From assembly GCA_963669435.1 (NCBI GenBank), contig OY770025.1:3445472-3509471 (forward strand): DNA of 64,000 nucleotides. Reading direction: 5' to 3'. Shown here one piece after another: positions 5,568 through 50,082 of this stretch. A program made the translations under genes and the position numbers. Numbering within the stretch: the stretch's first letter is position 1; each line of letters starts with the position of its first letter. The notes below the pieces were generated by a model. That model made no database searches and was not told the origin of the DNA. It saw only the letters and a program-made list of their open reading frames with translations. This DNA comes from Halieaceae bacterium (GTDB taxonomy: Bacteria > Pseudomonadota > Gammaproteobacteria > Pseudomonadales > Halieaceae).

Positions 5568-5596
5568 TTATCGAAATGCAACCGTGGAAAGCAACC

Positions 5597-6822: not shown

Positions 6823-6836
6823 TGACAAATTTGTCA
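6823..6836. promoter_or_regulatory. Perfect 14-bp palindrome TGACAAATTTGTCA upstream of the LLM gene
   Basis: TGACAAA|TTTGTCA is perfectly self-complementary. It lies 110 nt upstream of the ATG at 6947 in a 330-nt gap without a convincing ORF. Confidence 0.3.
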
Positions 6837-6946
6837 GTTCTCCATTACGAGCAAGTTTGTTCAAAAAGCTTTGCAAGTTAGTTCAAACCTTCTTGCGGCT
6901 GTTCCGTTACAGTAATACCCACAATCAATGAGACTGGAGATTTTTG

Positions 6947-8056: not shown

Positions 8057-8122
8057 CTCGTTAGGGGGCCGCCTTCCAACAGGGGCGAGCCTGGATAACT
8101 AATAAAAGCCACGGTCGTTATT

Positions 8123-9634: not shown

Positions 9635-9648
9635 AGTCTTCTATTTTC

Positions 9649-11675: not shown

Positions 11676-11760
11676 GGCTGTGCAAAAAAGGTTAATCGGC
11701 GCTAACCAGGCAGCAAACAATGGATGGGCTTCTGCCATCATCTGTATTCGAAGGAGAATT

Positions 11761-13870: not shown

Positions 13871-13912
13871 TCGAATCCTCCTGACGGTTCCGTGGTGCAT
13901 GCTGGATCGGTA

Positions 13913-32525: not shown

Positions 32526-32601
32526 ACCCGATTAACTTTGGTGCCCAGCGAATGAAAAGCGCGTGGGTCCAGACAACCATACTTTTGCTGGAGAATTATT
32601 A

Positions 32602-35043: not shown

Positions 35044-35212
35044 TTGTTGCCTCTTATCCTAATTGCGCCTTTGAATATTAGACGAATGCCCCACCCCAGG
35101 ACCACAATGTTACTGCGTTAATCGCCGCCAATTGTGGGCGGGTTGGTAGGGTATGCACCGGCCATAATCGTCTAATTGTTCAGATACTGAGTTGATATGG
35201 GGAGTCCCGTTG

Positions 35213-36190: not shown

Positions 36191-36202
36191 GAGAATTTAG
36201 CA

Positions 36203-37189
36203 ATGAGCGAGAAAAAGATATCAATACTCCAGGCCATAAACATGGCAATCCATGATGCGATGGAGGCAGACGACCAGGTAATTCTTTTTGGGGAAGATGT
36301 AGCGGATCCCGAGGGAGGTGGCGTTTACCAGGTCACCAGGGGGCTCTCTACAACCTTTGGTGACATGCGTGTCAGGTCCACCCCGATATCCGAGCAGGGC
36401 TTCGTCGGTGCGGGGGTAGGGGCTGCAATCGGCGGTATGCGTCCAATCGTGGAAGTAATGATGGTTAACTTCCTCACCGTCTGTATGGATCAAATCGTCA
36501 ACCACGCGGCGAAAATCCGCTTCATGAGTGGTGGCCAGACTTCCGTGCCAATGACGCTTCGAAGCATGAGCGGCGCAGGTTTCAGTACCGGTGGTCAGCA
36601 TTCAGACTGGACTGAGGCCTGGTTCGCCCACACGCCGGGGATGAAAGTGGTTATGCCATCTAACCCAGCTGACGCTTATGGCCTCCTTCGAGCCTGCATT
36701 GAAGATGATGACCCGTGTTTGCACCTCGAGCATATGGCGCTTTACTCCGCCCGCGGTGCAGCACCGGAAAAAGGCCATATTGTACCCCTGGGCAAGGCCA
36801 ACATCGTCCAGGAGGGCGGTGATGTGAGCCTGATTACCTACGGGAAGGGCGTTAGCGACTGCCAGGCGGCCGCGGCGAAACTGGCGGAAGACGGTGTCAA
36901 TGTGGAGATTATCGATCTGCGCACTATTTCCCCACTCGACAATGATACGATTCTGAACTCTGTCGCCAAAACCGGCCGGGCTGTTGTTGTACACGAGGCA
37001 GTCCGCAATTTTGGGGTAGGTGCTGAAATATCTTCACGAATCCACGAACACCTGTTCTCAGACTTGAAGGCACCCGTGCAGCGACTCGGTGCAGCGGAAA
37101 GTCCTGTCCCGTTCAGTAAGCCTCTCGAGGAAGCTTACCTGTACAGCCAACAGCAGATTATTGATGCCGCGAAAGTAACGCTTGCTTAA
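36203..37189 (+). CDS. 2-oxoacid dehydrogenase E1 beta subunit
   Basis: 'VILFGEDVADPEGGGVYQVTRGL...FGDMRVRSTPISEQGFVGAGVGAA'. AGGAGA RBS. Confidence 0.9.
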   Translation: MSEKKISILQAINMAIHDAMEADDQVILFGEDVADPEGGGVYQVTRGLSTTFGDMRVRSTPISEQGFVGAGVGAAIGGMRPIVEVMMVNFLTVCMDQIVNHAAKIRFMSGGQTSVPMTLRSMSGAGFSTGGQHSDWTEAWFAHTPGMKVVMPSNPADAYGLLRACIEDDDPCLHLEHMALYSARGAAPEKGHIVPLGKANIVQEGGDVSLITYGKGVSDCQAAAAKLAEDGVNVEIIDLRTISPLDNDTILNSVAKTGRAVVVHEAVRNFGVGAEISSRIHEHLFSDLKAPVQRLGAAESPVPFSKPLEEAYLYSQQQIIDAAKVTLA

Positions 37190-37212
37190 TTGATTAAACC
37201 TCCAGGAGAAAG

Positions 37213-37446
37213 ATGATGAGTACTGAAATTTTACTTCCCAAAATTGGATTTTCGATGACCGGCGCCAAGTTTGTGGAGTGGCACGTCGATGACGGTGCTG
37301 AGGTCAAGGAAGGTGATCTGCTTTATTCCATTGAGAATGATAAAGCCATTGAGGAAGTACCGTCTCCGGGAACGGGCGTGTTGAAGCGGATGGCCGAGGA
37401 AGACGAGGAATATGAAGTTGGCGATGTCTTGGGTCTGCTCGAATGA
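37213..37446 (+). CDS. Stand-alone lipoyl-domain protein (E2 N-terminal domain as a separate 77-aa polypeptide)
   Basis: 'EGDLLYSIENDKAIEEVPSPGTGVL' carries the lipoyl-lysine DKA motif. AGGAGA RBS. The stop overlaps the next start (ATGA at 37443-37446). Confidence 0.8.
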   Translation: MMSTEILLPKIGFSMTGAKFVEWHVDDGAEVKEGDLLYSIENDKAIEEVPSPGTGVLKRMAEEDEEYEVGDVLGLLE

Positions 37447-38192
37447 GCGATCCCAATGAATTGAATCTCGCGCCGTGGCCAAAGGATGATTTTTCGGCCT
37501 ATGGCGAGGTGGACGTCCAGCCAATTCCAAGAATCCAGCAACTCGTCGGGTCCTTTTTAGGCCGCAATTGGGTACGCATTCCCCACGTTTTTCATCAGGA
37601 TGAGGCAGACATCACGCGCCTCGATGCCTATCGCAAGGAATTGAATGCGAAAAACCCCGAGCAAAAGCTCACTCCGTTACCCTTCATCATGAAGGCGCTG
37701 GCGGCTGCCCTTGCGGAGTTTCCGCAATTCAATGCGTCCCTGGATGGTGAGGGAAACCTGGTATACAAGAAGTACTTTCATATCGGTGCGGCAGTAGATA
37801 CGCCCGGCGGACTTCTGGTACCCGTGATTCGTGATTGCGACAGTCGCACGGTGTATGACATTGCGCAGGATCTCGCGACTGTTTCAGAAAAAGCAAGAAC
37901 CAAGGGGCTTTCTACCGCGGAGATGTCCGGTGGCTGCGTAACAGTAAGTTCTCTCGGCCATATTGGTGGTACCGGTTTTACGCCGATCATCAATGCGCCC
38001 CAGGTCGCCATTCTGGGCCTGACCAAGGCAGTGTGGAAGCAGGTTGTACACGCACCTGAAGAGGTCGAGTATCAGTACAGACTGCCCCTGTCGCTCAGCT
38101 ATGATCATCGAATCATTAATGGCGCCGATGCTGCCAGGTTCTGTGTAAGGCTTGCGCAATTACTGGCGCACCCTGAAGAACTGGTCGAATAG
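37443..38192 (+). CDS. 2-oxoacid dehydrogenase E2 acyltransferase catalytic domain only
   Basis: 'IPRIQQLVGSFLGRNWVRIPHVFHQDEADIT', 'LSLSYDHRIINGADAARF' (DHR catalytic His). No lipoyl domain and no peripheral-subunit-binding domain. Confidence 0.85.
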   Translation: MSDPNELNLAPWPKDDFSAYGEVDVQPIPRIQQLVGSFLGRNWVRIPHVFHQDEADITRLDAYRKELNAKNPEQKLTPLPFIMKALAAALAEFPQFNASLDGEGNLVYKKYFHIGAAVDTPGGLLVPVIRDCDSRTVYDIAQDLATVSEKARTKGLSTAEMSGGCVTVSSLGHIGGTGFTPIINAPQVAILGLTKAVWKQVVHAPEEVEYQYRLPLSLSYDHRIINGADAARFCVRLAQLLAHPEELVE

Positions 38193-38775: not shown

Positions 38776-39450
38776 ATGAACAAGCCCAAAGACAAACCCA
38801 TTCGCGAACGTATCCTGGAAACAAGCCTGAGCCTTTTCAACAACCACGGGTACCAGACGACCACGGTGCGAAAGATCGCCCAGCAACTGGACGTAAGCTC
38901 TGGCCACGTCCAGTACCATTTCAAGAGCAAAAATGACATCGCCTTGGCGCATTTCCCTTCGTTGGAGCATGAAATCGAAAGTCAGGTATTGGACGTTGTC
39001 AAACCCGATCAAATGTTTACACCTTATGTAGGTGCCCGGGATGCTATAGCGATAGTCAGGACCATCTGGCGATACCGTTTCATATTTCTCTCGCTCAATA
39101 CCTTGCTCAAGGAAGATGAGGAAATCCGCAGGAGATATTTGAGGCTCCAAGAGTCCATTATCAGCTATGCCGAGTCCGCCTTCCAGCAATTGATAGCGTC
39201 AGGAGAGATGCGCTTACCCGAGTGGCCAAATTCTCCGCGCTCTCTGGCAGAGAGCTGGTGGTACGTGTGGTTGGGCTGGCTACGAACCGAAGAACTGCAG
39301 TATCACGCCCACGATATGCTCCCCGACAAAGTCGTCTACGAGGGGGCTTTGATTACCTTTGGCGTGGTTTCGCCATTTCATAGTGAAGCCTTTGCCGAGG
39401 GCTTCAAACAGAGCTCTCAGGATATATTGCCTGCTTACTCCGGGAATTGA
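38776..39450 (+). CDS. TetR family transcriptional regulator (paralog 2 of 3)
   Basis: 'TTVRKIAQQLDVSSGHVQYHFKSKNDI', 'IWRYRFIFLSL'. Confidence 0.85.
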   Translation: MNKPKDKPIRERILETSLSLFNNHGYQTTTVRKIAQQLDVSSGHVQYHFKSKNDIALAHFPSLEHEIESQVLDVVKPDQMFTPYVGARDAIAIVRTIWRYRFIFLSLNTLLKEDEEIRRRYLRLQESIISYAESAFQQLIASGEMRLPEWPNSPRSLAESWWYVWLGWLRTEELQYHAHDMLPDKVVYEGALITFGVVSPFHSEAFAEGFKQSSQDILPAYSGN

Positions 39451-39589: not shown

Positions 39590-41005
39590 ATGAGCAAAGA
39601 AGAAATCTATGATTACGAAAGTGGCTATGTGTCCTACCCACACATCACTGATCCGGACGCGGTAGAGGCGAAAGCCCCCTACATAGATCACGGCACCGAC
39701 AAGCCGGATAAAAATCGATATATAGATCGTGATGAAGCCGAGTTAGAGTGGCAGCACGTATTTCGTAAGACCTGGTTGTTCGCGGGCGTCACCTTCGACC
39801 TTAAGAAAAAAGGCGATTTTTTTACTTACGATATTGGTCGGGAGGCATTCATCGTCCTGAAGGTCGGTGAAGGTGAATCGGACATTAATGTATTTTTCAA
39901 CGTCTGCCCCCATCGTGGTAATCGTCTTGTCACCGATGACTTTGGAAATATCGGCTCCAATTTTTATTGTAATTTTCATGGATGGAAGTTCAATTCCGAA
40001 GGCGAGAATATAAAGGTTAAAGACGAATTTATATTCCGCGAGGAGGCCCTGAAGACAAGGTTGTGCCTGAAAAAGGTGCGTTGTGATATCTGGAATTCTC
40101 TTATATTTATCAATATCGATGGAGAGGCTCAGCCCCTGGAGGATTACCTTGATGTAATCCCAGGGCATCTCAAGAACTACCCCATTGGCGAGTTTCGAGT
40201 GCTGCGTGACTTTGAAGCAGACTGGCCCGCGAATTGGAAAACTGCGATGGACGCATTTGTAGAGTTCTACCACTCTGACGATGTGCATCCCGAACTCATT
40301 CCCATTATGTCGACCTACGACGTGCAGTACGATTTGTACAAAAATGGCATGAGCAGAATGTTTCTCAAAAACGGCTTTGCCCCGCCCAGGTTGAATGATC
40401 GGGAAGAGGTGAACCCTTCGCTCAAGGCCCTGGTAGAGTTGTACGGCGGTAATAATGACGACTTTACCCATCTCAAAGGCCATGAATATAAACAGGCACT
40501 GGTCCAGACCAAGAGAGCGTGGGGCAAGAAACACGGCTACGATTTTTTCGATGATCTGACCGACGACCAGATTACCGATGACTGGAACTATCACATCTTC
40601 CCCAACATTACGCTCAACTGTTTTTCCGATGGTCTGCTGATCCAGCAGTGGAAGCCGCACCCGGACGACCCGAATAAGAGTTACTACTGGGCTCTCACCC
40701 TGTGTCTCCCCGTGGCCGATCCGGAGATTCGGGTAATGGACATTAACAACTTTGGTCCTGACAGCTATGGACCCCCAGGGTGGGATGGCTCTGAAAGGCC
40801 AGAGCGCGAGCGACCCAAGTGGGGAGTACCTGAAGATTGTAACTCCAAGGTGTGGGGTCACGTGTTGTGGCAGGATGCGGAGCGGGTTCCCAATGTGCAT
40901 CAGGGTATGCGATCAGAGGCATTCGATGGCCCAATTCTCTCGGAAGCAGAGATACGTATTCGACATTATCTGGCCGAAATCGATCGGCTAATCGGCAGGG
41001 ACTAA
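39590..41005 (+). CDS. Rieske [2Fe-2S] non-heme-iron oxygenase alpha subunit (paralog A)
   Basis: Rieske 'CPHRGNRL...(19 aa)...CNFHGWKF'. Mononuclear-iron motif 'DAFVEFYHSDDVHPE' (H-x4-H). 471 aa. Confidence 0.85.
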   Translation: MSKEEIYDYESGYVSYPHITDPDAVEAKAPYIDHGTDKPDKNRYIDRDEAELEWQHVFRKTWLFAGVTFDLKKKGDFFTYDIGREAFIVLKVGEGESDINVFFNVCPHRGNRLVTDDFGNIGSNFYCNFHGWKFNSEGENIKVKDEFIFREEALKTRLCLKKVRCDIWNSLIFINIDGEAQPLEDYLDVIPGHLKNYPIGEFRVLRDFEADWPANWKTAMDAFVEFYHSDDVHPELIPIMSTYDVQYDLYKNGMSRMFLKNGFAPPRLNDREEVNPSLKALVELYGGNNDDFTHLKGHEYKQALVQTKRAWGKKHGYDFFDDLTDDQITDDWNYHIFPNITLNCFSDGLLIQQWKPHPDDPNKSYYWALTLCLPVADPEIRVMDINNFGPDSYGPPGWDGSERPERERPKWGVPEDCNSKVWGHVLWQDAERVPNVHQGMRSEAFDGPILSEAEIRIRHYLAEIDRLIGRD

Positions 41006-41034: not shown

Positions 41035-41931
41035 ATGGCAATTTCTCCAAACCACAAAATAGTAAGCCCGCCATCGGCGGAAACGATATTCCTGCCTGCC
41101 AACGAATTCGAAGGCCAATCAGTGGTGGTAACGGGAGGTAGCTCTGGTATGGGGCTGGGTATGGCATCGGCTTTTGCTCGTGCTGGCGCGAATGTTGTTG
41201 TTATGGGAAGGTCTGAGGACAAGGCCATGGATGCGGCAGCATTCTTGTCGAGAACCGCCGCAGCCAGTGGTACCTGTTTCGGTGTTGCGGCTGATGTGCG
41301 AGATCCGGATCAGGTCAGTGCCGCATTCGACGTGGCGGAATCCAAGGTCGGCCCTATCTCTATATTGGCCAACAATGCCGGAGGTAATTTCCCGGCGCTT
41401 GCCGAAAAGATATCAACCAACGCCTGGCGGGCGATCTCCAGAATTGCAATTGATGGCACATTCATAGCTTCATCGGAGTTTGCTCGTCGCCTGAAGGGTC
41501 GCGGAGCGATCGGTAGCATTGTCAACAATAGCGCTCAATATATCTGGACTGGATTTCCAGGGGACGCTCATTCCGCCTCGGCCAAAACAGCGGTTGCAAC
41601 AATGACGCGATCGATGGCCCGGGAGTGGAAGGCTGATGGCATACGGGTGAATTGCGTTGCCGCCGGTATGTTTCCCCATGAACAGGCGGCCGCTATGGGT
41701 GGGCTGGACCAGGAAGTACTTGATACGTATGCAGGTATGGTGCCTGCCGGACGGGTTGGTCAAATGCAGGAGTTTGGTTGGGCGTCGGCATTTTTGTGTT
41801 CATCATTGGCCGGGCCGATTTCCGGCCAGGTTTTGATGATCGACGGGGGTGATAGCCTCAGGCGATCCTTGATATCCCCGGCGTATGTTCCCCCCAGGGA
41901 GCGAAAAGAAATTTGGGGATACGAGGCATGA
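41035..41931 (+). CDS. SDR family oxidoreductase (2,4-dienoyl-CoA-reductase-like subgroup)
   Basis: 'VVVTGGSSGMGLGMASAFARAGANVVVMGR', 'LANNAGGNF', 'SASAKTAVATMTRSMAREWKADGIRVNCVAAG'. Confidence 0.8.
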   Translation: MAISPNHKIVSPPSAETIFLPANEFEGQSVVVTGGSSGMGLGMASAFARAGANVVVMGRSEDKAMDAAAFLSRTAAASGTCFGVAADVRDPDQVSAAFDVAESKVGPISILANNAGGNFPALAEKISTNAWRAISRIAIDGTFIASSEFARRLKGRGAIGSIVNNSAQYIWTGFPGDAHSASAKTAVATMTRSMAREWKADGIRVNCVAAGMFPHEQAAAMGGLDQEVLDTYAGMVPAGRVGQMQEFGWASAFLCSSLAGPISGQVLMIDGGDSLRRSLISPAYVPPRERKEIWGYEA

Positions 41932-42527
41932 GTAACGGAGCCCAGTGGTTAGCGGGCAAAGTCGCACTCCTGGTTGGTGAGGGCCCAGGCCTTAAAGCGG
42001 TTGGGGAAGCAATTGTGGCTGCCGGTGGCCAAGTTGAGTACGGGGACTTTTGTGATGATTTGGAGGGCGCCAAGTCGGTGATTGGCGCCCATTCGGGCGA
42101 TCAGACTTCGTCTATCGATATCCTCGTCCATGCGGGTACCCGGCGCGCGCCCGTAGCAAGTGAGACCATGTCACTGGCTGACTGGCGTGATACGATGAAG
42201 GAAAACCTCGACAGCAAATTTTATTACTCCAGCGCCCTGGCCAATCAGGTTATTGGTACGGACCAACGGGCGTCTATTTTGTACCTGGAACCAGCCTCGG
42301 CCATCGATAGTACCTCCTCTATGGCGTCAAATGGTGCCATGAGCAGCCTTACCAAAACGCTGGCGACAGAGTGGGCCAGAGACGGTATTCGTGTTAACGC
42401 GATAACCTCGGACGTGAACTACGAGGGTGGCCTGGCTCAGTTGCAAGCACTGGGGCACCTGGCTACCTATCTGTGCAGCGATTATGCCGCCTATGTTACT
42501 GGCGCCTCCCTCGGGATTGAGGACTAG
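41928..42527 (+). CDS. Degenerate SDR-fold protein lacking catalytic Tyr/Lys (predicted non-catalytic partner subunit)
   Basis: ATG 41928 overlaps the upstream stop (ATGA). 'LAGKVALLVGEGPGLKAVGEAI' replaces TGxxxGxG. 'SMASNGAMSSLTKTLATEWARDGIRVNAI' has S/N where YxxxK is expected. C-terminal 'YLCSDYAAYVTGASLGI' retains the SDR signature. Confidence 0.65.
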   Translation: MSNGAQWLAGKVALLVGEGPGLKAVGEAIVAAGGQVEYGDFCDDLEGAKSVIGAHSGDQTSSIDILVHAGTRRAPVASETMSLADWRDTMKENLDSKFYYSSALANQVIGTDQRASILYLEPASAIDSTSSMASNGAMSSLTKTLATEWARDGIRVNAITSDVNYEGGLAQLQALGHLATYLCSDYAAYVTGASLGIED

Positions 42528-42625: not shown

Positions 42626-44035
42626 CTATGCCCTCCCCACAAGTCGATCAATTTCGGCGAGATAATGCCGAATTCGGATCTCCGATTCATTCAGGATGGC
42701 GCCTTTGAACGAGTCAGACTGAATACCCCGCTGAACGAAAGGCACGCGTTCAGCATCCTGCCACATCACTCTGCCCCAAACGTCATAGCCGGTTTCTTCG
42801 GGGTTGTTCCAGTCAGGTCGGAAACATTCGGGTCTGTCAGAGCCATCCCAGCCTTTCGGTCCAAAGCTATCGGGCCCAAAGTTATTAATGTCCATGACAC
42901 GTATCTCGGGGTCGCTCACTGGCAGGCAAAGCGTTAATACGTAGTAGTAGCTCTGGGTAGGATCCGTCGCGTGGGGCTTCCAGGACTGGATCATCAAGCC
43001 ATCCGAGAAGCAGTTTAGAGTCGTATTGGGGAACAAATGATAGTTCCAATCATCGGTAATCTGGTCATCGGTCAGGTCATCAAAAAAATCGTAGCCGTGT
43101 TTTTTACCCCACTTGCGTTTGGTATCGCAAAATGCCGCTTTGAACTCGGTTCCCTTGAGGCCCTTGTAATCATCGATGTTCCCGTCATACATCTCGATGT
43201 ACATTTTCAGGAAGTCGTTGACCTCCTCGGGATTGGGTGTCTTCTCAAATGCCGCGCCATTCCGCAGGAACATGCGGCTGACTCCCTTGTCGTAGCAATC
43301 GTACTGTGAGTCCACGGTGGACATTACCGGTACCACTTCCGGGTGCACATCATCGCCATGATAAAACTCGAGGAAGGCCTCCATGGCAGTCTTCCAGTTG
43401 GTTGGCCACTGGGCCTCGAACTCTCTCAGTACGCGAAATTCGCCAAACTGGTAGTTCTTCAGGTGTTCGGGGATCACGCCCAGCGCCTCATGCAGCGGCT
43501 CTGCATCATCGTCCATGTTGATGAAGATGAGGGAATTCCAGATCTCGCAGCGTACTTTTGGCAGGCATAGGGGGTTCTGTAGCGTTTCTTCCCGGAAGAT
43601 AAATTCGTCCTTGACCCTTATGTTCTCGCCGTGCAGATCCCATTTCCAGCCGTGGAAATTGCAGTAGAAGTTGCCGTCGATATGCCCCCGGTCTTGGGTG
43701 ACGATAAAATTGCCTCGGTGCGGGCAGACGTTATAGTACGCTGCAATGTCATCGCTATCCGGACCATGGCGGACAATGATGAAAGATTCCTTGCCCAGGT
43801 CGTACTTGATGTAGTCTCCAACTTCGGGAACGTCAACAACCAGACCGGCGAAGGTCCAGGTCTTCTTGAACACGTGCTCCCACTCCAGGCCCTGTTCTTC
43901 GTGTGAGTAATAGCGCGTTTTGTCAGGCATGTCCGTGCCGTGATCGATGTAGGGTGCCTTGGCCTCAACCGCGGTCGGGTCAGTGATTTCCGGATAAGAG
44001 ATATACCCCTGCTTGTAGTCAAATTTTGCTGGCAT
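42626..44035 (-). CDS. Rieske [2Fe-2S] non-heme-iron oxygenase alpha subunit (paralog B)
   Basis: ATG 44035 (MPAKFDYKQGYISYPEITDP...) with GGAG RBS. 'CPHRGNFI...CNFHGWKW', 'EAFLEFYHGDDVHPE'. Collinear with paralog A over its whole length. Confidence 0.85.
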   Translation of the reverse strand: MPAKFDYKQGYISYPEITDPTAVEAKAPYIDHGTDMPDKTRYYSHEEQGLEWEHVFKKTWTFAGLVVDVPEVGDYIKYDLGKESFIIVRHGPDSDDIAAYYNVCPHRGNFIVTQDRGHIDGNFYCNFHGWKWDLHGENIRVKDEFIFREETLQNPLCLPKVRCEIWNSLIFINMDDDAEPLHEALGVIPEHLKNYQFGEFRVLREFEAQWPTNWKTAMEAFLEFYHGDDVHPEVVPVMSTVDSQYDCYDKGVSRMFLRNGAAFEKTPNPEEVNDFLKMYIEMYDGNIDDYKGLKGTEFKAAFCDTKRKWGKKHGYDFFDDLTDDQITDDWNYHLFPNTTLNCFSDGLMIQSWKPHATDPTQSYYYVLTLCLPVSDPEIRVMDINNFGPDSFGPKGWDGSDRPECFRPDWNNPEETGYDVWGRVMWQDAERVPFVQRGIQSDSFKGAILNESEIRIRHYLAEIDRLVGRA

Positions 44036-44308
44036 GTTTGTCGCTCCGCTAGTTAGGTTTACCAAAAGTGTTGCTACCGCCCAGTCGGGTGGCGATGAGA
44101 TTTTTCTGATCGACACTCGATCTAATTGAATTGACGGGAGTTGGTGGCACTCCCCTCAGCGCTTCTCGGCCCCATCTGGTTTTGCACTGATGTAAGTCAA
44201 GAAAATAGGCGATTTTGGCGTCAAAGTACGGGTTGGGGTCACCGCTATCCCCAAACGTCTTTATAGGAGTAACGCGATATTGAAACCTGTAATTCAAGGA
44301 GTACCTCG

Positions 44309-45901
44309 GTGGCAAGCCAATATGACATTGTTTGCGTTGGAGCGGGCAGTAACACCCTTGTTGCCGCTGCGTATCTGGCGAAAGCCGGTAAGAAGGTTTT
44401 ATTACTGGAGAAAAATAGTCAGGCCGGAGGCGGTGTCGTTTCCGTAAATATTGCGCCAGGTTTTGTCCATGACCCGCATGCTACGGGTTACATTTCTTTC
44501 CAGGCCAACCCTGCAATTAAGGATGATGAGTTGGGCTTGTTTTCCCAGTTTGGATTGGAAACTTTTACTTATGAGGCCAGCTTCGCCAGTATATTTGATT
44601 CGGGAGATGGTCTGATTTCGTACACGGATCTTGATCGATCCTGCCAGGAATTGGCGAAATATTCCCAGCGCGACGCTGATAATTACCGGGCGTTTGTCGG
44701 TCGGGCGCAGCAGGTGTTACCCATGCTCGCCCGTGGCGCATCAACGCCTCCCTTGCCCATGTCCGGTTTCTTTAATCTTCTGCAGGGTAGCCCTCTCGCC
44801 GAAGAATTGGCCAGCGCGTTGTTCAAAAGCGCTTATGACATTATCGAGGAGTTGTTCGAATCGGTGGAGGCAAAGCTGCACTATGCAAAATGGTGTGCTG
44901 AGGTCATGGAGAATCCTGAAACCAAGGGCACTGGCATCGTGATGTATAACCTTTGCGGATTGGCACACACCTACGAAGCGCTGGCGATAACCGGAGGTTC
45001 GAAGAACTTAACCAATGCGCTCATTCGCGCGGTCGAACATTACGGCGGAGAGCTCATTACCGGCGCCGAGGTTACCAAGGTCAAAATTGAATCCGGTGTT
45101 GCCAAGGGCGTCGAGCTGAAGGATGGTCAGTTTATTGCCGCGAAAGACGCGGTGCTTGGCTGTATCCATCCCTGGAATCTCGGCACTGTAATTCCAGAAA
45201 TCGATCCGGGAGTGGCGGAGCGCGCGCGGCAGGTGAAGCTCAGCGGCCATGGGGCGATAAATCAGCAGATAGCCTTGACGGAACATCCCCAGTTTAAGGC
45301 TGACAACCCCGACGTTTACCACGACGCCATGTGTGTCGAATACGTGCCGAAGAATCTGGACGGAATCCGCAAAAGTTTCGATATGTACCGTTACGGTGAA
45401 CTCCCCGACGAATTCATCAGCCCCATGACGATGCTACATTCCCGCAAGGATCCCAGCCGGGTTCCGGATGCCGACAAGTGCGCGATGTATTTGTACCACT
45501 TTGCCCCCAGAGTGCTGAAAGATGGCGGTCTGCAGGGGTGGGAGCGACACCGGGAGGAATTCGCGGATGCAATCTGGGAAAGGTTTAAGCAATACACCAC
45601 CAACATGGATGACAGCAAAATTATAGCTCGGCTTGTGGAATCTCCGCAGGACCATCACAACCACTCTGCAAGTATGGTTAATGGTGACATCATCGGCATT
45701 GGTACGACAGTTGGGCAATTGAATGCCCACCGACCCAACGCGGAGCTTTCTAACTACACGGTCCCTGGATTGGAGCAATTCTATCTTGCCGGACCCTTCA
45801 TGCATCCGGGTGGTACCGTCTTATTTGGTGGGCGTGCCACGGCCATCAAGATGTGCAAGGACATGGGAATTCCTCTCAAGTCTGCGTTCGATTATATCTA
45901 G
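44309..45901 (+). CDS. NAD(P)/FAD-dependent oxidoreductase (phytoene-desaturase/CrtI-like family)
   Basis: GTG start 7 nt after AAGGAG. 'YDIVCVGAGSNTLVAAAYLAKAGKKVLLLEKNSQAGGG'. 530 aa. Confidence 0.8.
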   Translation: MASQYDIVCVGAGSNTLVAAAYLAKAGKKVLLLEKNSQAGGGVVSVNIAPGFVHDPHATGYISFQANPAIKDDELGLFSQFGLETFTYEASFASIFDSGDGLISYTDLDRSCQELAKYSQRDADNYRAFVGRAQQVLPMLARGASTPPLPMSGFFNLLQGSPLAEELASALFKSAYDIIEELFESVEAKLHYAKWCAEVMENPETKGTGIVMYNLCGLAHTYEALAITGGSKNLTNALIRAVEHYGGELITGAEVTKVKIESGVAKGVELKDGQFIAAKDAVLGCIHPWNLGTVIPEIDPGVAERARQVKLSGHGAINQQIALTEHPQFKADNPDVYHDAMCVEYVPKNLDGIRKSFDMYRYGELPDEFISPMTMLHSRKDPSRVPDADKCAMYLYHFAPRVLKDGGLQGWERHREEFADAIWERFKQYTTNMDDSKIIARLVESPQDHHNHSASMVNGDIIGIGTTVGQLNAHRPNAELSNYTVPGLEQFYLAGPFMHPGGTVLFGGRATAIKMCKDMGIPLKSAFDYI

Positions 45902-45919
45902 CTAAATTGGGAGACCAGC

Positions 45920-46129
45920 ATGAAATTGTACGCGTCAGATAACTCTGAACTGATGGAAGTGGAATCCATCGAACGGGTGGATAACAACCTGGTTGTCGAA
46001 GGCACAATCATGGGATCTATGCCTATTCGGGCAACAGTCAAACCTGCCGAGGTGCGCAAGGTCTTTAAGTTGCTGAGTTTCAGCACGATTATTTTTGCCA
46101 TCAGCATGCTGTTCCGCGGTTCCAGGTAA
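45920..46129 (+). CDS. Small hypothetical protein with C-terminal hydrophobic helix
   Basis: 69 aa, GGGAGA RBS, C-terminal 'VFKLLSFSTIIFAISMLF'. Wedged between the FAD oxidoreductase and the mutase with short spacers. Confidence 0.4.
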   Translation: MKLYASDNSELMEVESIERVDNNLVVEGTIMGSMPIRATVKPAEVRKVFKLLSFSTIIFAISMLFRGSR

Positions 46130-46175
46130 ACCTGCTTCCTGTGTTCAGCCCGGAATTGCCGGAGATCAAAAGCCA

Positions 46176-47819
46176 ATGAGTGACGACAAAAATTCCGCGA
46201 TTGAGAGCGTCAAGGTCAAGCTCTCTCGAACCAGGACCTGGGGCGGTATGGAGACCGAGAATGTCTACAGACCTGAGACAGGGATCGACCAGGAGTATGA
46301 AGAGAAACTCGGCGACCCTGGCCAGTACCCCTACACCCGAGGTGTTTCGGAAAGTGGTTATCGCAGAAAAATGTGGACGCTTCGCAACATCGTCGGATAC
46401 GGCGCGCCAGAAGATACGCTTGAAGGAATTAGAAGCGCGTTGGCAGCGGGTACGGCAGGGATTAATGTTGTACCGGATGCGCTGACCCAGCAAGCGGTCG
46501 ATCCCGATCATCCGGCGTTTGGGGTGGAAGTAGGTGCGGAGGGATGTTCCATCGCCTGCGCCCGGGATATGGAGCGACTGACTCAGGATATAGATATCAC
46601 TCAGTCAGGTGTTGCCTACCACTATGGCATGCTGGCATACGCCGTTTCGGCTGCAGTTGCCACCAGGCGTGGTATATCGCTGGACAAGATGTTGGGCTCT
46701 TCCATGCCTGACTTTCTTTCCTATTCACTATCTGGTTGGGGTCAGCAGGTTTTCCCGGCCGCCTTCGCTCATAAGGCGACACTGGATTGTCTCGAATTCT
46801 CCACCCAAAATAGCCCCTACTGGGCCGTTGCTATGCCGCAGGCCTATGACTTGCGCGAGAGGGGGGCGCCACCCTGGGGCGAGATTGCCTATGGTATGGC
46901 GATCGTCAACAGGACCATGGAAGATCTTGTTTCCCGTGGTCTGAGTGTTGATGAAGTGGCACCGAGCCTCGCCTGGGTGTCTACCTCGGACATCGACTTC
47001 TTTGAAGAAGTGGCCAAGTTCAGGGCTGTGCGGCGCGTATGGGCCCGTACCATGAAGGAGCGGTTTGGCGCGACCAACCCCAGGGCAATGAGCATCCGCA
47101 TGGCCTGCCACACTGCCGGAAAATCCCTGGTCTACCAGCAGCCGCTGAATAATCTCAGCCGGGTGGCAATCCAGTCGTTTGCGGCACTCTGCGGAGGTGT
47201 TCAATCCCTGGAAGCCTGCACCTTCGATGAACCGATCTGTATTCCCACTCCCGAAGCCCGAGAGTTGGCAACCCGCACCCAGCAGATACTGGCTCACGAA
47301 GTTGGAGCGGCGCGGACAATAGATCCTCTGGGAGGAAGCTACTATGTCGAGGCGTTGACCGACGAGATAGAAAGTCGTGCTCTGGCAATGCTGGCCGATA
47401 TCGAGGAAAAAGGCATCGTCGAGGCAATAGCCGACGGCTCGTTGGAGAAGCTCATGGATGAGCACAACCTGACGCAGGAGCGTGAAATGGCGTCCAAGGA
47501 TCGGATCATGGTCGGTCGAAACGATTTTGTTCCTGGAGAGGAAGAGCAACCGAAACGCTTCACTTTTGATAAAGAGAATACGCGCAAGCATATTGCGCGA
47601 TTTATTGAGATGAAGAAAACCCGGGACAACGACTTGTTGCAAGATAAGCTACGTAAGTTGTATCTCATCGCGCAGGGCGACGATAATTTCCACCAGGCGA
47701 TGATTGATGCTTTTGTCGCGGATGGTACTATCGGTGAAGTCTGGGGTACCGTGAGGATGGCGAACGGTCTCAGCTACGACCCATTCCACGTGATTGAGTC
47801 GCCGTTCTCCTTTAACTGA
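46176..47819 (+). CDS. Coenzyme-B12-dependent acyl-CoA mutase, large (substrate-binding) subunit, divergent
   Basis: 'PGQYPYTRGV', 'ACHTAGKSLVYQQPLNNLSRVAIQSFAALCGGVQSLEACTFDE', 'IDPLGGSYYVEALT' are methylmalonyl-CoA-mutase-family blocks. ATG 46176 is preferred over the listed TTG 46095. Confidence 0.85.
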   Translation: MSDDKNSAIESVKVKLSRTRTWGGMETENVYRPETGIDQEYEEKLGDPGQYPYTRGVSESGYRRKMWTLRNIVGYGAPEDTLEGIRSALAAGTAGINVVPDALTQQAVDPDHPAFGVEVGAEGCSIACARDMERLTQDIDITQSGVAYHYGMLAYAVSAAVATRRGISLDKMLGSSMPDFLSYSLSGWGQQVFPAAFAHKATLDCLEFSTQNSPYWAVAMPQAYDLRERGAPPWGEIAYGMAIVNRTMEDLVSRGLSVDEVAPSLAWVSTSDIDFFEEVAKFRAVRRVWARTMKERFGATNPRAMSIRMACHTAGKSLVYQQPLNNLSRVAIQSFAALCGGVQSLEACTFDEPICIPTPEARELATRTQQILAHEVGAARTIDPLGGSYYVEALTDEIESRALAMLADIEEKGIVEAIADGSLEKLMDEHNLTQEREMASKDRIMVGRNDFVPGEEEQPKRFTFDKENTRKHIARFIEMKKTRDNDLLQDKLRKLYLIAQGDDNFHQAMIDAFVADGTIGEVWGTVRMANGLSYDPFHVIESPFSFN

Positions 47820-47836
47820 AACTTGGCAGGCAATCT

Positions 47837-48262
47837 ATGAACGACAGTGCAAATCCGCAATCCGGTAAAATTCGCTGTTTACTCGGAATGCTCGGTACTG
47901 ATGTGCACAGCAAGGGAATTCGGACCCTGGCCCAGTTGTTGCGTGACGCGGGAATCGAGGTGATCTATATCGGCGAGCATAATACCGTACCTGGAATGGT
48001 GCGATCTATTATCGTCGAAGATGCCGATGTCGTCGGACTCAGTTTTTTGTCGTCCAACTATCTGGACTACTGCGAACAGTTACGCGATGAAATGCGTGAC
48101 GCCGGGGCCTCAGACACACCCGTGATGGTTGGTGGGATCATCCATCAGGAAGACTATGAAGCCCTCGGAGCACTCGGTGTATCGGGCATTTTTGGGCCGG
48201 GCTCCACCACCCAGGACGTTCTGGATTTTCTGCAGCAGGCCACCGGTAAGACGCTCAACTGA
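47837..48262 (+). CDS. Acyl-CoA mutase small subunit (cobalamin-binding domain)
   Basis: 'LLGMLGTDVHSKGIRTLAQLLRDAGIEVIYIG' contains the base-off/His-on DxHxxG motif. 141 aa. Confidence 0.85.
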   Translation: MNDSANPQSGKIRCLLGMLGTDVHSKGIRTLAQLLRDAGIEVIYIGEHNTVPGMVRSIIVEDADVVGLSFLSSNYLDYCEQLRDEMRDAGASDTPVMVGGIIHQEDYEALGALGVSGIFGPGSTTQDVLDFLQQATGKTLN

Positions 48263-48309
48263 TTGGGTCGTTACGATCGTACCGGTTGATGTTCAAACCC
48301 CGTTGAAGC

Positions 48310-49254
48310 ATGGAACCCCTGGACTTGGAACAAATAATCTCAGCTCTGCGAGCAGGGGAGCTGCGCACTGCCGCCAGGCTTATTAGCCGGATTGAAAACA
48401 ACGATCCTGAACTGCTCCCTCTGCTCAAGAAACTTTATCTTCTCGGCGGTAATACCCAGGTTGTGGGTATCACCGGTCCCCCTGGTGCGGGAAAGAGCAC
48501 ACTGGTAAACCAGCTCGTAAGCAGCTATCGGCAAAATGATAAGCGTGTAGCTGTACTGGCCGTGGACCCTTCCAGCCCATTCAGCGGGGGCGCCATTCTG
48601 GGAGACAGGGTGCGAATGAGCCGACATGATGCTGACCCGGGCGTTTTTATCCGCAGTATGGCCAGTCGCGGCAGCCTCGGGGGGCTGGCAAATGCGGCAG
48701 CGGACACAATCAGCTTGCTCGATATCATGGGCTGGGACCTGATCATTGTTGAGACGGTCGGGGTAGGGCAGAACGAACTCGAGATTATGCGACATGCAGA
48801 TACGGTAGTACTTATTCAAACACCGGAGTCCGGTGATGCGGTGCAGGCTGTGAAAGCGGGAGTTCTGGAAATTGGAGACATTTTCGCGGTAAACAAAGCC
48901 GATCACCATGACGCTGATAAACTGGCTGCCGCAATTGCGGATATGGTTGCCAGCAAGGGTTTAGTCGAGGGCTGGATACCTGAGGTCATTAAGACGGAGG
49001 CGGTCTCCGGGAAAGGTATTGATGAGCTCATGACTCATATAGGGGCTCACCAGAACTTCCTTAAAGATAGCACCCCGGCAGTACGGGCCAGAAATCTGCA
49101 GAAAGTGAGATTTCGCGTATTGGACATCTGCAAACAGAATGCCACCAGAAAGCTGCTTGAAGGCCAATACGCCTCCGATATTGAACCGAAGCTGTCGGCA
49201 GTCGTTGATCGCGAGTCCGATCCCTACACAGTCGCTGCGGAACTCATAGACTAG
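48310..49254 (+). CDS. meaB: Methylmalonyl-CoA-mutase-associated G3E GTPase (MeaB/ArgK family)
   Basis: P-loop 'GITGPPGAGKSTL', 'VDPSSPFSGGAILGDRVRM', 'VETVGVGQ', 'NKAD'. Confidence 0.9.
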   Translation: MEPLDLEQIISALRAGELRTAARLISRIENNDPELLPLLKKLYLLGGNTQVVGITGPPGAGKSTLVNQLVSSYRQNDKRVAVLAVDPSSPFSGGAILGDRVRMSRHDADPGVFIRSMASRGSLGGLANAAADTISLLDIMGWDLIIVETVGVGQNELEIMRHADTVVLIQTPESGDAVQAVKAGVLEIGDIFAVNKADHHDADKLAAAIADMVASKGLVEGWIPEVIKTEAVSGKGIDELMTHIGAHQNFLKDSTPAVRARNLQKVRFRVLDICKQNATRKLLEGQYASDIEPKLSAVVDRESDPYTVAAELID

Positions 49255-49389
49255 TCTTGCCGACTTTGTCACTTTTTTCAGGACCTTATTGAGGTACAGC
49301 CTTCTCGGATTCGTCACAATCTATGGGCATGTTAGGAATGCTTGAGTATGATGCGAGGTGGCATCGGGGCGCTCAAGTCAAAACTACTT

Positions 49390-50082
49390 ATGAACACTAA
49401 AGAACGGATCATTCTTAAGAGTATCGAGCTATTCAATCGCGACGGGGTAGATGGCGTTCCGCTTCACCGTATCGCCGCTGAACTCGGGATGAGCCCCGGG
49501 AACTTAACCTACCATTACAAAAACAAGGACGAGCTGATTGCGGCCATCTACCCCAGCATGGCAGATGCACTGAAGCAGGCACTGCGGCTTCCGGCGGACG
49601 CAGATCGCCCTTTGTCAGCTGCTTATGTCGCACAGTATCAAATTGGTATCTTAAGAGTCCTCTGGAGCTACCGGTTTTTCTTTATAGGCTTGAAGTCCAT
49701 CCTGGCGAAAGACCCCGCGTTGGAAGCTGAGTACTGGCAGTTTCATGATTGGGTGATCGATAGGCTGGGACGATTACTCGAAGGGGAGATCGAAGCCAAA
49801 GGCATGAGACCAATCCTTCCCCCCAGTACAACCGCTGTCGTAGCCACTAACCAATGGTATTTGTGGGTGAGTTTTCTGTTCTTCCAGGGACATGAGAGCA
49901 AGGTCCAGAATTTGGACATTCAGGAAGTTATCTACAATGGTGTGCTGCGCAACTTCAGTCTGTTGCTTCCATACTGTACCGAGTCTTTCGCTGAGCAATT
50001 TGTGTGCGAATGTCGCAGGCAACTGGAAATTGACCTGGCCGACGAAACTATCGATGGATTCCACGCCGTTATGTCTGGCTAA
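49390..50082 (+). CDS. TetR family transcriptional regulator (paralog 3 of 3)
   Basis: ATG 49390 (MNTKERIILKSIELFN...). 'LHRIAAELGMSPGNLTYHYKNKDELI', 'LWSYRFFFIGL'. Confidence 0.85.
   Translation: MNTKERIILKSIELFNRDGVDGVPLHRIAAELGMSPGNLTYHYKNKDELIAAIYPSMADALKQALRLPADADRPLSAAYVAQYQIGILRVLWSYRFFFIGLKSILAKDPALEAEYWQFHDWVIDRLGRLLEGEIEAKGMRPILPPSTTAVVATNQWYLWVSFLFFQGHESKVQNLDIQEVIYNGVLRNFSLLLPYCTESFAEQFVCECRRQLEIDLADETIDGFHAVMSG

What the first reader, a model, noticed from the sequence alone, without database searches (positions are those of the whole stretch)
44309..49254. Divergent B12-dependent acyl-CoA mutase with altered substrate-pocket blocks, co-located with a CrtI-like flavoprotein and a mini-membrane protein
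The large subunit (46176..47819) has the family blocks 'YPYTRG', 'HTAG.S...Q.P.NN..R....A..A..GG.QSL' and 'DPLGGSYY'. Regions that, as I recall them, are nearly invariant in methylmalonyl-CoA mutases are changed:
- 'WT(I)RQ(Y/F)AGF(S/G)' reads 'WTLRNIVGYG'.
- 'GLSVAFDL(A/P)TH.GYDSD' reads 'GINVVPDALTQQAVDPD'.
- Around the Arg that binds the substrate carboxylate ('QND.LKEF.VRNTYI.PP') the sequence is 'MPDFLSYSLSGWGQQVFPA', with no Arg.

The cobalamin subunit (DVHSKG) and MeaB (GPPGAGKST) look standard. Substrate specificity is therefore unlikely to be methylmalonyl-CoA and is not assignable by eye.
Basis: partly seen in the sequence, partly recalled or inferred. Interest (0 to 1): 0.6.

Follow-up and report, generated by a model that had tools for sequence, protein, structure and literature searches.

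The report
Uncharacterised B12 acyl-CoA mutase clade
These genes encode a complete vitamin-B12 acyl-CoA mutase from a widespread but unstudied branch whose whole substrate pocket, including the usual catalytic histidine, has been rebuilt, and which travels with a Rieske oxygenase and a fatty-acid-type CoA ligase, so it probably rearranges a bulky branched CoA ester that no studied mutase handles.

Summary

On Propionibacterium MCM numbering:
- Tyr89 is Ile.
- Gln197 is Met.
- Arg207 is a Gly-Trp pair in a segment one residue longer.
- His244 is Asp.
- His328 is Ala and Gln330 is His.
- His364 is Glu and Asn366 is Cys.
- The CoA motif, the deoxyadenosine-binding Glu370, the DxHxxG B12 subunit and MeaB are intact.

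These replacements are near-invariant across 120 cluster representatives. They are absent from MCM-type, ICM-type, HCM and PCM references. The clade is monophyletic (100% support) on a stem of more than 2 substitutions per site.

Gene context in 13 loci from gamma-, beta- and alphaproteobacteria:
- An orthologous Rieske oxygenase in 9 of 13.
- A FadD3/long-chain-type CoA ligase in 6 of 13.
- A split E1/E2 thiamine-lipoyl system in 6 of 13.
- The CrtO-like flavoprotein with its mini-protein in 4 of 13.

The gene is missing from 80 relatives, including 4 genomes of the same genus.

Most likely this is an active AdoCbl mutase of a new specificity class in an aerobic catabolic route for a bulky, uncharged, branched acyl-CoA. 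The substrate itself is inferred, not shown. I found no published characterisation.

The parts
46176..47819 (+). Acyl-CoA mutase large (substrate/TIM-barrel) subunit, 547 aa, new clade (Ile72, Val99, Met177, Gly187-Trp188, Asp225, His312, Glu346, Cys348; Glu352 kept)
   Evidence: PF01642 430.8 bits and TIGR00641 370.4 bits. Best solved relative is HcmA 4r3u at 305.7 bits. AF2 pTM 0.81 and Foldseek TM 0.81 to 4r3u. Alignment, numbering and tree.
47837..48262 (+). B12-binding small subunit, 141 aa, DVHSKG (DxHxxG), SxL and GG motifs
   Evidence: PF02310 70.8 bits and TIGR00640 93.6 bits above its cut-off. Motifs. A homologue (43-73% identical) is encoded beside the large-subunit gene in all 12 other loci; in L102 it is on the opposite strand.
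48310..49254 (+). MeaB-type G-protein chaperone, 314 aa, P-loop GPPGAGKST
   Evidence: TIGR00750 320.6 bits against a cut-off of 240.75. Present in 11 of 13 loci.
44309..45901 (+). CrtO/CrtI-like FAD oxidoreductase, 530 aa, same operon, 18 nt before the mini-ORF
   Evidence: NCBIfam CrtO 208 bits over the full length, far below the cut-off. crtI_fam 63 bits. PDB 4dgk CrtI 35 bits. Orthologues at 80%, 51% and 52% lie next to the mutase in L005, L092 and L102. The family is wider than the mutase clade.
45920..46129 (+). Conserved 69-aa partner of the flavoprotein, with a hydrophobic C-terminal segment (possible membrane tether)
   Evidence: No Pfam or NCBIfam hit. GGGAGA lies about 6 nt before the ATG. 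Homologues at 80%, 67% and 50%; in L005 and L102 they lie directly after the flavoprotein orthologue, in L092 about 1.2 kb away on the opposite strand. The L102 copy has a clear C-terminal TM helix.
39590..41005 (+). Rieske non-haem-iron oxygenase alpha subunit, copy 1 (471 aa), with no beta subunit
   Evidence: PF00355 and PF00848. Only weak similarity to GbcA-type oxygenases (107 bits against 670). Orthologues (50-57% identical) lie within 10 kb of the mutase in 8 other loci. It is translationally coupled to the mutase in L101. At least 16 contig lengths are shared between the two homologue lists.
42626..44116 (-). Rieske oxygenase alpha subunit, copy 2 (paralogue, 67% identical to copy 1), divergent from the flavoprotein-mutase operon
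   Evidence: PF00355 and PF00848. Listed as P0131 at 67% identity.
41035..42527 (+). SDR (298 aa, 2,4-dienoyl-CoA-reductase-like) plus an overlapping truncated SDR-like partner (41913-42527)
   Evidence: The pair is conserved at 74% and 55% in L005.
35192..38192 (+). ThDP E1 alpha (35192-36190), E1 beta (36203-37189), stand-alone lipoyl protein (37213-37446) and E2 catalytic core (37443-38192). An acyl-CoA-forming oxidative decarboxylase or acyloin-cleaving system.
   Evidence: Orthologues at 46-70% (four of the five loci at 48-70%; the L102 lipoyl protein is 46%) lie near the mutase in L004, L005, L091, L096 and L102.
38776..39450 (+). TetR (PF13972 type) regulator upstream of Rieske copy 1
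   Evidence: The same TetR type lies near the mutase in L006, L007, L092 and L102.
49342..50082 (+). Second TetR (PF13972 type) regulator directly after meaB
31848..33741 (+). Enoyl-CoA hydratase-family protein (31848-32525) and family III CoA-transferase (32563-33741). Probable feeders or consumers of the CoA ester.
   Evidence: The CoA-transferase has a 67% orthologue in L005.

Best explanation
**What it is.** Genes 46176-49254 encode a functional adenosylcobalamin-dependent acyl-CoA mutase made of a large barrel subunit, a small B12 subunit and a MeaB chaperone. It belongs to a distinct, widespread and uncharacterised specificity class.

**Mechanism (inferred from the family).**
1. Homolysis of the Co-C bond gives a 5'-deoxyadenosyl radical, held by the conserved Glu352.
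2. The radical abstracts a hydrogen from the carbon next to the thioester-bearing carbon.
3. The CoA-thioester group shifts 1,2.
4. The hydrogen is returned.

**What is different (shown).** The residues that hold and polarise the substrate in all studied members are replaced by a conserved new set. I infer that Asp225 and/or His312 take over the acid role of His244.

**Substrate (inferred).**
- The carboxylate clamp (Tyr89/Arg207) is replaced by Ile, Val, Met and Gly-Trp.
- The linked CoA ligase is of the FadD3/long-chain type.
- So the substrate is most likely a medium-to-large, uncharged, lipophilic acyl-CoA whose alpha-carbon is fully substituted or tertiary. Candidates are gem-dimethyl or alpha-methyl isoprenoid or alicyclic acids.

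**Pathway (inferred).**
1. The partner Rieske monooxygenase oxidises a methyl or methine group.
2. Dehydrogenases, or the E1/E2 system, CoA ligase or CoA-transferase, deliver the CoA ester.
3. The mutase converts it into a form that beta-oxidation enzymes (ECH, ACAD, SDR) can take.

**Graded odds.**

| Claim | Odds |
|---|---|
| Active mutase with a specificity not yet described | about 0.85 |
| Non-carboxylated lipophilic substrate | about 0.6 |
| Pivalyl-type 'de-quaternising' shift specifically | about 0.3 |
For: **Family membership and intact cofactor machinery.**
- PF01642 430.8 bits; B12 subunit with DxHxxG; MeaB above its cut-off.
- YPYTRG, NN..R, FDE (Glu370) and DPLGGSYY are kept.
- The fold matches HCM, MCM and IcmF at TM about 0.8.
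- The genome has a CobA-type adenosyltransferase.

**Rebuilt pocket under selection.**
- Replacements mapped on PDB numbering: Y89I, Q197M, R207 to G-W, H244D, H328A, Q330H, H364E, N366C.
- They are conserved in 99-120 of 120 cluster representatives. GYH and QND occur in none.
- All MCM-type, ICM-type, HCM and PCM references keep His244, Gln197 and Gln330.

**Separate clade.** 100% SH-aLRT support, stem 2.1-3.0 substitutions per site, 30-36% identity to every reference.

**Not the housekeeping MCM.** A canonical fused MCM lies elsewhere in the genome.

**Context.**
- Rieske orthologue in 9 of 13 loci, including a single Rieske-ligase-mutL-mutS-MeaB operon (L103, L009) and a start/stop overlap (L101).
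- Ligase orthologue in 6 of 13 loci, of FadD3/long-chain/steroid-24-oyl type and unrelated to the 2-HIBA ligase.
- E1/E2/lipoyl in 6 of 13 loci.
- ECH directly upstream in three loci.
- ACADs, TonB-dependent receptors and TetR regulators nearby.
-.
Against: - No enzymology, expression data or ligand is available.
- The pocket also gains Asp225, Glu346 and Arg229, so a polar or charged substrate is not excluded.
- His244-to-Asp has no precedent among the mutases compared here, so the chemistry may differ from a plain thioester shift.
- The AF2 model has low confidence in the active-site loops (residues 57-69, 314-322, 348-362). No coordinates could be inspected, so 'first shell' rests on alignment to MCM and HCM.
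- In this genome the best match to the clade-linked ligase is only 44% identical.
- Neighbourhoods differ between lineages, so the clade may cover several substrates.
Confidence: 0.6

Rival explanations
1. An HCM-like tertiary-alcohol mutase. It would interconvert a longer-chain or bulkier 2-hydroxy-2-alkylacyl-CoA and the 3-hydroxyacyl-CoA. The tertiary alcohol would be made by the Rieske monooxygenase, as MdpJ feeds HCM in tert-butyl alcohol degradation.
For: - HcmA is the best solved relative by sequence and by fold.
- Ile72 is the same residue as HCM Ile90.
- The Rieske plus ligase plus mutase logic mirrors mdpJ / hcl / hcmAB.
- An ECH lies directly upstream in three loci.
Against: - HCM Asp117, the hydroxyl-binding residue, is Val99 here. 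Gln208 and His245 are also changed.
- The ligase shows no similarity to HCL at E 1e-5.
- The Rieske protein has no relative on the M. petroleiphilum plasmid that carries the hcm cluster.
- Identity to HcmA is only 33-35% and the clades are separate.
Confidence: 0.17
2. A mutase for a positively charged or strongly polar CoA ester, such as an amino- or trimethylammonio-acyl-CoA. The new Asp225 and Glu346 with the Trp188 'cage' would replace the anion clamp.
For: - His244 to Asp, His364 to Glu, and a Trp at the Arg207 site.
- The Rieske partner's nearest curated models are betaine- or carnitine-type oxygenases, though weakly (JGI names).
- BKACE, 2,4-diaminopentanoate-dehydrogenase-like and amine-oxidase-fold genes recur in the neighbourhoods.
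Against: - Arg229 is also gained.
- The ligase is a fatty-acid type.
- The flavoproteins are nearer to CrtI/CrtO than to amine oxidases.
- No aminotransferase or betaine transporter is present in the window.
Confidence: 0.1
3. A non-catalytic or regulatory mutase-like subunit, as MutA is in heterodimeric MCM, or a decaying paralogue.
For: Loss of His244, Gln197, Gln330 and Arg207. Solved inactive beta chains also match this query at lower scores.
Against: - 58-84% identity among homologues from gamma-, beta- and alphaproteobacterial sources, with near-invariant new pocket residues.
- Glu370 and the CoA motifs are kept.
- It always comes with its own DxHxxG B12 subunit, and in 11 of 13 loci with its own MeaB.
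- No second catalytic subunit is in the operon.
Confidence: 0.04
4. An ordinary methylmalonyl-CoA or isobutyryl-CoA mutase that is simply fast-evolving.
For: Source annotations read 'methylmalonyl-CoA mutase family protein'.
Against: - It lacks Tyr89/Arg207 and also Phe/Gln.
- It scores far below the MCM and IcmF equivalogs.
- A canonical MCM is present in the genome.
- The gene is absent from 80 relatives.
Confidence: 0.02

Closest known systems
2-Hydroxyisobutyryl-CoA mutase HcmAB with MeaH (Aquincola tertiaricarbonis, PDB 4r3u; orthologues Mpe_B0541 of M. petroleiphilum PM1 and Xaut_5021)
   Same: - Split large and small subunits plus a G-protein chaperone.
- Best sequence match (305.7 bits) and best fold match (TM 0.81).
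- Ile at the MCM-Tyr89 position.
- Operon logic of CoA ligase plus mutase, with an upstream Rieske hydroxylation.
   Different: - Only 33-35% identical.
- HCM Asp117 is Val, Gln208 is Gly-Trp, His245 is Asp. Gln (MCM 330) is His.
- The ligase is unrelated to HCL and of long-chain/FadD3 type.
- A separate clade with 100% support.
Isovaleryl-CoA/pivalyl-CoA mutase PCM (Xanthobacter autotrophicus Py2 Xaut_5043/5044). That these genes are PCM is recalled from Kitanishi et al. 2015, a paper that was not held.
   Same: - A split mutase with MeaB and TetR.
- A hydrophobic residue replaces Tyr89 and there is no Arg207.
- Acts on an uncharged acyl-CoA with a quaternary alpha-carbon, the reaction type I think most likely here.
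   Different: - 30% identity.
- PCM keeps His244, Gln197 and Gln330 and has its own signature (RQLIGLG, SLLPC, GQH).
- Its operon has a PaaD-type thioesterase and ABC transporter, not a Rieske oxygenase.
Methylmalonyl-CoA mutase (P. shermanii 1req, human MMUT 2xij, and the genome's own fused MCM)
   Same: TIM-barrel substrate domain, CoA-binding YP[YF]TRG motif, Glu370, B12 domain with DxHxxG, MeaB/MMAA chaperone.
   Different: - 26-30% identity.
- Tyr89, Gln197, Arg207, His244, His328, Gln330, His364 and Asn366 are all replaced.
- Split rather than fused.
- Accessory and patchily distributed rather than housekeeping.
Isobutyryl-CoA mutase, ICM/IcmF type (C. metallidurans IcmF 4xc6; Phe/Gln-signature split mutases)
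   Same: Uncharged substrate; no Arg207.
   Different: The Phe/Gln signature is absent. IcmF equivalog score is 126 against 1500. Only 105 bits to 4xc6. ICM-type sequences keep His244 and Gln330.

Membership tests
AdoCbl-dependent acyl-CoA mutase superfamily (PF01642 / TIGR00641) | Substrate-binding TIM-barrel domain recognised by the family models | tested here: met
   PF01642 430.8 bits (cut-off 22.1) and TIGR00641 370.4 bits (cut-off 303.8). Foldseek TM 0.77-0.81 to HCM, MCM and IcmF.
AdoCbl-dependent acyl-CoA mutase superfamily (PF01642 / TIGR00641) | Cobalamin-binding Rossmann domain with base-off/His-on DxHxxG, SxL and GG | tested here: met
   Separate 141-aa subunit with DVHSKG, SFL and GG. 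TIGR00640 93.6 bits against 57.45.
AdoCbl-dependent acyl-CoA mutase superfamily (PF01642 / TIGR00641) | Glu that binds the 5'-deoxyadenosine ribose (MCM Glu370), and the CoA-binding N-terminal motif | tested here: met
   Glu352 aligns with Glu370. YPYTRG and WT.R are kept and invariant in the clade.
AdoCbl-dependent acyl-CoA mutase superfamily (PF01642 / TIGR00641) | AdoCbl-dependent isomerase activity | not testable with these tools
   Needs enzyme assay or EPR.
Methylmalonyl-CoA mutase (MCM) | Carboxylate clamp Tyr89 and Arg207, and catalytic His244 | tested here: not met
   Ile72, Gly187-Trp188 and Asp225 at those columns. Numbering was checked on 5req (the Y89F chain) SEQRES. Equivalog NF006944 scores 295.6 against 876.
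2-Hydroxyisobutyryl-CoA mutase (HCM) | Ile90 together with Asp117 (hydroxyl binding). Positions confirmed in PM1 and Py2 HcmA; their role is recalled from Kurteva-Yaneva et al. 2015. | tested here: not met
   Ile72 matches Ile90, but Asp117 is Val99.
2-Hydroxyisobutyryl-CoA mutase (HCM) | [quoted passage not shown] | tested here: not met
   Clade-linked ligases give no BLASTP hit to PM1 HCL at 1e-5. Their best NCBIfam models are long-chain/FadD3 type.
Isobutyryl-CoA mutase (ICM/IcmF) | Phe at Tyr89 and Gln at Arg207 (roles recalled from the literature) | tested here: not met
   Ile and Gly-Trp instead. NF045497 scores 126 against 1500.
Pivalyl-CoA mutase (PCM) | Clustering with, and sharing the pocket signature of, Xaut_5043 | tested here: not met
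   30.3% identity and a different signature. A separate clade, each with 100% support.
Ethylmalonyl-CoA mutase (ECM) and (R)-specific RCM; IaaGH-type arylsuccinyl-CoA mutase | Clustering with a verified reference sequence | not tested
   No verified ECM, RCM or IaaG sequence could be obtained. A 702-aa Methylobacterium plasmid protein with Tyr/Arg/His grouped with the MCM type. Carboxylated substrates are unlikely without Arg207.

The most novel reading that the evidence does not exclude
The clade, with its Rieske oxygenase and CoA ligase, forms a previously unrecognised aerobic, B12-dependent route for removing quaternary or otherwise blocked carbons in natural lipophilic compounds such as gem-dimethyl terpenoid, carotenoid-end-group, triterpenoid or resin-acid-type acids.

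The proposed steps are:
1. A methyl group on the blocked carbon is oxidised to a carboxyl.
2. The carboxyl is thioesterified.
3. The thioester is then shifted onto the neighbouring carbon.

The mutase would do this with a relocated catalytic acid, an Asp225/His312 pair in place of His244/Gln330. That would be a new catalytic solution within the acyl-CoA mutase family.
Probability: 0.25. Interest if true: 0.8.

Novelty: new variant of a known kind. Interest (0 to 1): 0.62.

Why it matters
Only a handful of acyl-CoA mutase specificities are known: MCM, ICM/IcmF, ECM, HCM/RCM and PCM. Each one opened a pathway, in propionate, branched-chain, ethylmalonyl, fuel-oxygenate or pivalate metabolism, and gave a tool for synthetic carbon-skeleton editing.

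This clade is large. All 120 best cluster representatives are at least 58% identical and come from marine and soil Proteobacteria. It is mobile, and it sits in a repeatable operon with an oxygenase and a CoA ligase, so the missing substrate is experimentally tractable.

It replaces the histidine that every other compared mutase keeps. It therefore also tests how far the radical-rearrangement machinery depends on that residue.

Cultured carriers exist, including Paraburkholderia sp. PGU19 (WP_180736718-20), Variovorax sp. HW608, Sphingobium faniae, Aurantiacibacter rhizosphaerae and Novosphingobium resinovorum.

Tried and rejected
**Literature.**
- Eight full-text searches found no paper on this clade or operon.
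- The key mutase papers (Kitanishi 2015, Kurteva-Yaneva 2015, Weichler 2015, Yaneva 2012, Rohwerder 2006) are not held.
- The roles of the named residues are therefore from memory. I checked their positions on PDB and HcmA sequences.

**Searches that missed or gave nothing.**
- The genome-contig scan with the clade alignment was swamped by the generic FEE[VI]AKFR pattern. It returned 79 ordinary split mutases and one clade member. I used them as outgroups instead.
- A search of the PM1 plasmid for a relative of the Rieske partner (MdpJ hypothesis) found nothing.
- Rfam found no riboswitch or other RNA in the window.
- The promoter and terminator scan was no better than shuffles for promoters. 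The inverted-repeat search for TetR operators was uninformative.

**Readings I considered and rejected.**
- 'The flavoprotein is the mutase's obligate partner'. Its family is much wider and it is linked in only 4 of 13 loci.
- 'The window's CoA ligase at 61438-63039 is the clade-linked ligase'. It is only 43-45% identical, against 52-73% among the linked orthologues.

**Limit of the structure work.** AF2 gave no coordinates, so no pocket geometry or docking was possible.

Full report
**Observation**

| Coordinates | Product | Size |
|---|---|---|
| 44309-45901 | CrtO/CrtI-like flavoprotein | 530 aa |
| 45920-46129 | mini-protein | 69 aa |
| 46176-47819 | mutase large subunit | 547 aa |
| 47837-48262 | B12 subunit | 141 aa |
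| 48310-49254 | MeaB | 314 aa |

- All quoted strings occur exactly as written.
- Family assignments are firm. PF01642 scores 430.8 bits and TIGR00641 370.4 bits. PF02310/TIGR00640 match the small subunit. MeaB TIGR00750 scores 320.6 bits, above its cut-off.
- The large subunit fails every equivalog model. MCM NF006944 scores 295.6 against 876, and IcmF 126 against 1500.
- The genome carries a separate canonical fused MCM of 722 aa, 793 bits.

**How different the pocket is**

I aligned the protein with these sequences:
- 18 clade members;
- the genome's own MCM;
- HcmA of M. petroleiphilum PM1 and of X. autotrophicus Py2;
- Xaut_5043, which I recall as the characterised pivalyl-CoA mutase, and a 60% identical Sulfitobacter homologue;
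- 40 split mutases from many phyla.

I then fixed residue numbers on PDB sequences.
- In chain 5req_A (the Y89F mutant) the Phe lies opposite query Ile72.
- Counting along the same chain gives the table below.

| MCM residue | Query residue |
|---|---|
| Tyr89 | Ile72 |
| Gln197 | Met177 |
| Arg207 | Gly187/Trp188 (segment one residue longer) |
| Tyr243 | Tyr224 (kept) |
| His244 | Asp225 |
| His328 | Ala310 |
| Gln330 | His312 |
| His364 | Glu346 |
| Asn366 | Cys348 |
| Glu370 | Glu352 (kept) |

HcmA has Ile90, Asp117, Gln208 and His245. Only Ile90 is shared, and Asp117 is Val99 here.

Every MCM-type, ICM-type, HCM and PCM sequence aligned keeps His244, Gln197 and Gln330. That replacement includes the histidine which, from established MCM work (PDB 1e1c is the H244A mutant), assists the rearrangement.

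**The replacements are selected, not decay**

Counts across the 120 best cluster representatives, which are 58-83% identical (apart from the window's own protein at 100%):

| Motif | Representatives carrying it |
|---|---|
| GW | 120 |
| CHT[AS]G | 119 |
| PQ[AG]YD.RERG | 115 |
| GS.MPD | 115 |
| WT.RN[IV]VG[YF]G | 109 |
| GYH | 0 |
| QND | 0 |

- Forty aligned members share 71% mean column identity.
- In ML trees the clade is monophyletic with 100% SH-aLRT support. Its stem is 2.1-3.0 substitutions per site, longer than the PCM stem (1.9) and the HCM stem (1.0).
- AlphaFold2 gives a confident barrel (pTM 0.81). Its best structural matches are HCM 4r3u (TM 0.81), human and bacterial MCM, and IcmF. 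The active-site loops have low confidence.

**Distribution**

- The gene is absent from 80 relatives, including four genomes of the same genus, and from a 300-genome sample of the class.
- Homologues at about 60% identity occur in Halieaceae, Sphingobium, Novosphingobium, Aurantiacibacter, Paraburkholderia (on a plasmid), Variovorax, Macromonas and Hydrocarboniphaga.
- It is therefore an accessory, horizontally mobile function.

**Context**

I compared 13 loci: the window plus L003/L096, L004-L007, L009, L090-L092 and L101-L103.

| Partner | Loci | Notes |
|---|---|---|
| Small subunit | 13 of 13 | encoded beside the large-subunit gene (opposite strand in L102) |
| MeaB | 11 of 13 | |
| Rieske alpha subunit orthologue (50-57% identical) | 9 of 13 | two copies in the window; single Rieske-ligase-mutL-mutS-MeaB operon in L103 and L009; stop/start overlap with mutL in L101 |
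| CoA ligase orthologue (at least 54% identical) | 6 of 13 | |
| Split E1-alpha/E1-beta/lipoyl protein/E2-core set | 6 of 13 | orthologues 46-70% identical (four of the five other loci at 48-70%) |
| CrtO-like flavoprotein with mini-protein | 4 of 13 | |

- At least 16 contig lengths recur between the best-hit lists for the mutase and the Rieske protein.
- The ligase's best models are long-chain, FadD3, steroid-24-oyl and cyclohexanecarboxylate ligases. It is unrelated to the 2-HIBA ligase.
- The L102 mini-protein is 88 aa with a clear C-terminal TM helix.
- The flavoprotein family is much broader than the mutase clade.
- An ECH lies directly upstream in three loci.
- Recurrent accessory genes are ACADs, APH-type kinases, BKACE, CoA-transferases, DUF1295, AveC-like, DUF7064, PF13972-type TetR regulators and TonB-dependent receptors.
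- The first 12 kb of the window holds the same accessory families.
- In this genome the nearest relative of the clade-linked ligase is only 44% identical. The CoA ester may therefore be supplied here by the E1/E2 system or by the family III CoA-transferase, which has a 67% orthologue in L005.

**Interpretation**

*Shown:*
- A complete, conserved mutase system of a separate clade with a rebuilt pocket.
- Genetic coupling to a Rieske oxygenase, a fatty-acid-type CoA ligase and acyl-CoA-processing enzymes.

*Inferred:*
- It is an active AdoCbl isomerase. The cofactor and adenosine contacts are intact, it has a dedicated chaperone, and the genome has a CobA-type adenosyltransferase.
- The substrate is not a carboxylated C4/C5 ester.
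- It is most likely a bulky, uncharged, alpha-branched acyl-CoA. I infer this from the hydrophobic replacements at the clamp and from the ligase type.

*Speculative:*
- The reaction is a pivalyl-type shift that de-quaternises a carbon whose methyl group was first oxidised by the Rieske enzyme.
- Asp225 and/or His312 substitute for His244.

*Rivals:*
- A bulky-substrate HCM-like reaction.
- A cationic substrate. Asp and Glu are gained, there is a Trp at the Arg site, and amine-type accessory genes recur.
- A non-catalytic subunit.
- A plain MCM or ICM.

**Comparison with known systems, and novelty**

The system works like HCM or PCM: a split mutase with a chaperone and a ligase. It is not a member of either, because tested defining residues are not met.

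No publication on this clade was found in eight searches. Earlier AI notes of this scan on other genomes describe what appears to be the same His-to-Asp family and reach the same reading. I treat those as leads only.

I class it as a new variant of a known kind, of good interest to B12 enzymology and to the catabolism of branched or alicyclic compounds.

Noticed in passing
window 4368-5405 (-), 6944-8056 (+), 11680-12447 (+), 50990-51457 (-); genome C1:3378618-3378974: The island carries several F420-type genes: two luciferase-like oxidoreductases (one with best hits to F420-dependent LLM models), an Fno-like F420_oxidored protein and a DDN-type F420H2-dependent reductase. The genome also has a 1111-aa ORF with a CofH domain, about 67 kb upstream. 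L007, a mutase-clade locus, likewise carries a CofC/radical-SAM/CofH fusion. F420 use would be unusual for this kind of proteobacterium.
   Followed up: partly
window 37213-38192; L096 1369-2369; L005 5060-6033; L102 4544-5529: The E2 is split into a stand-alone lipoyl protein of about 76 aa and a catalytic core of about 250 aa, with no E3 nearby. The same split is kept in Paraburkholderia plasmid and metagenome loci that carry the mutase, so it is a stable architecture and not a local frameshift.
   Followed up: partly
window 41035-41931 and 41913-42527: A 298-aa SDR (best model 2,4-dienoyl-CoA reductase) overlaps a truncated SDR-like ORF. The pair recurs at 74% and 55% identity in L005, which suggests a heteromeric SDR with a pseudo-SDR partner.
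   Followed up: partly
L093 (Sulfitobacter sp. BSw21498 plasmid) 3449-9590: An operon of TetR, B12 subunit, mutase, MeaB and a hotdog thioesterase, 60% identical to Xaut_5043 and in the same gene order. It is followed by a carboxyl-transferase and a crotonase. This looks like a pivalate-to-isovaleryl-CoA-to-methylcrotonyl-CoA carboxylase route in a marine roseobacter.
   Followed up: no
L009 and L103 (two contigs of one Hydrocarboniphaga MAG, JAQGNT01): One genome holds two paralogous Rieske / CoA-ligase / mutase operons of this clade. This hints at several related substrates per organism.
   Followed up: no
window 8123-10449 and 12704-13900; L004 2488-5478; L103 1-1215: Long APH-type kinases of about 490-500 aa recur near the mutase in this window and in L004; in this window one is followed by a Y_phosphatase3 protein. 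A Sulfotransfer_3 protein recurs near the mutase in this window and in L103. Their function is unknown. The APH/ACAD pairing in L003 resembles 4-hydroxyacyl-CoA processing (lva-type).
   Followed up: no
window 29084-29569; L101 656-1129: A ChrR-type Cupin_7 protein lies next to a TonB-dependent receptor both in the window and in a distant mutase-clade locus.
   Followed up: no
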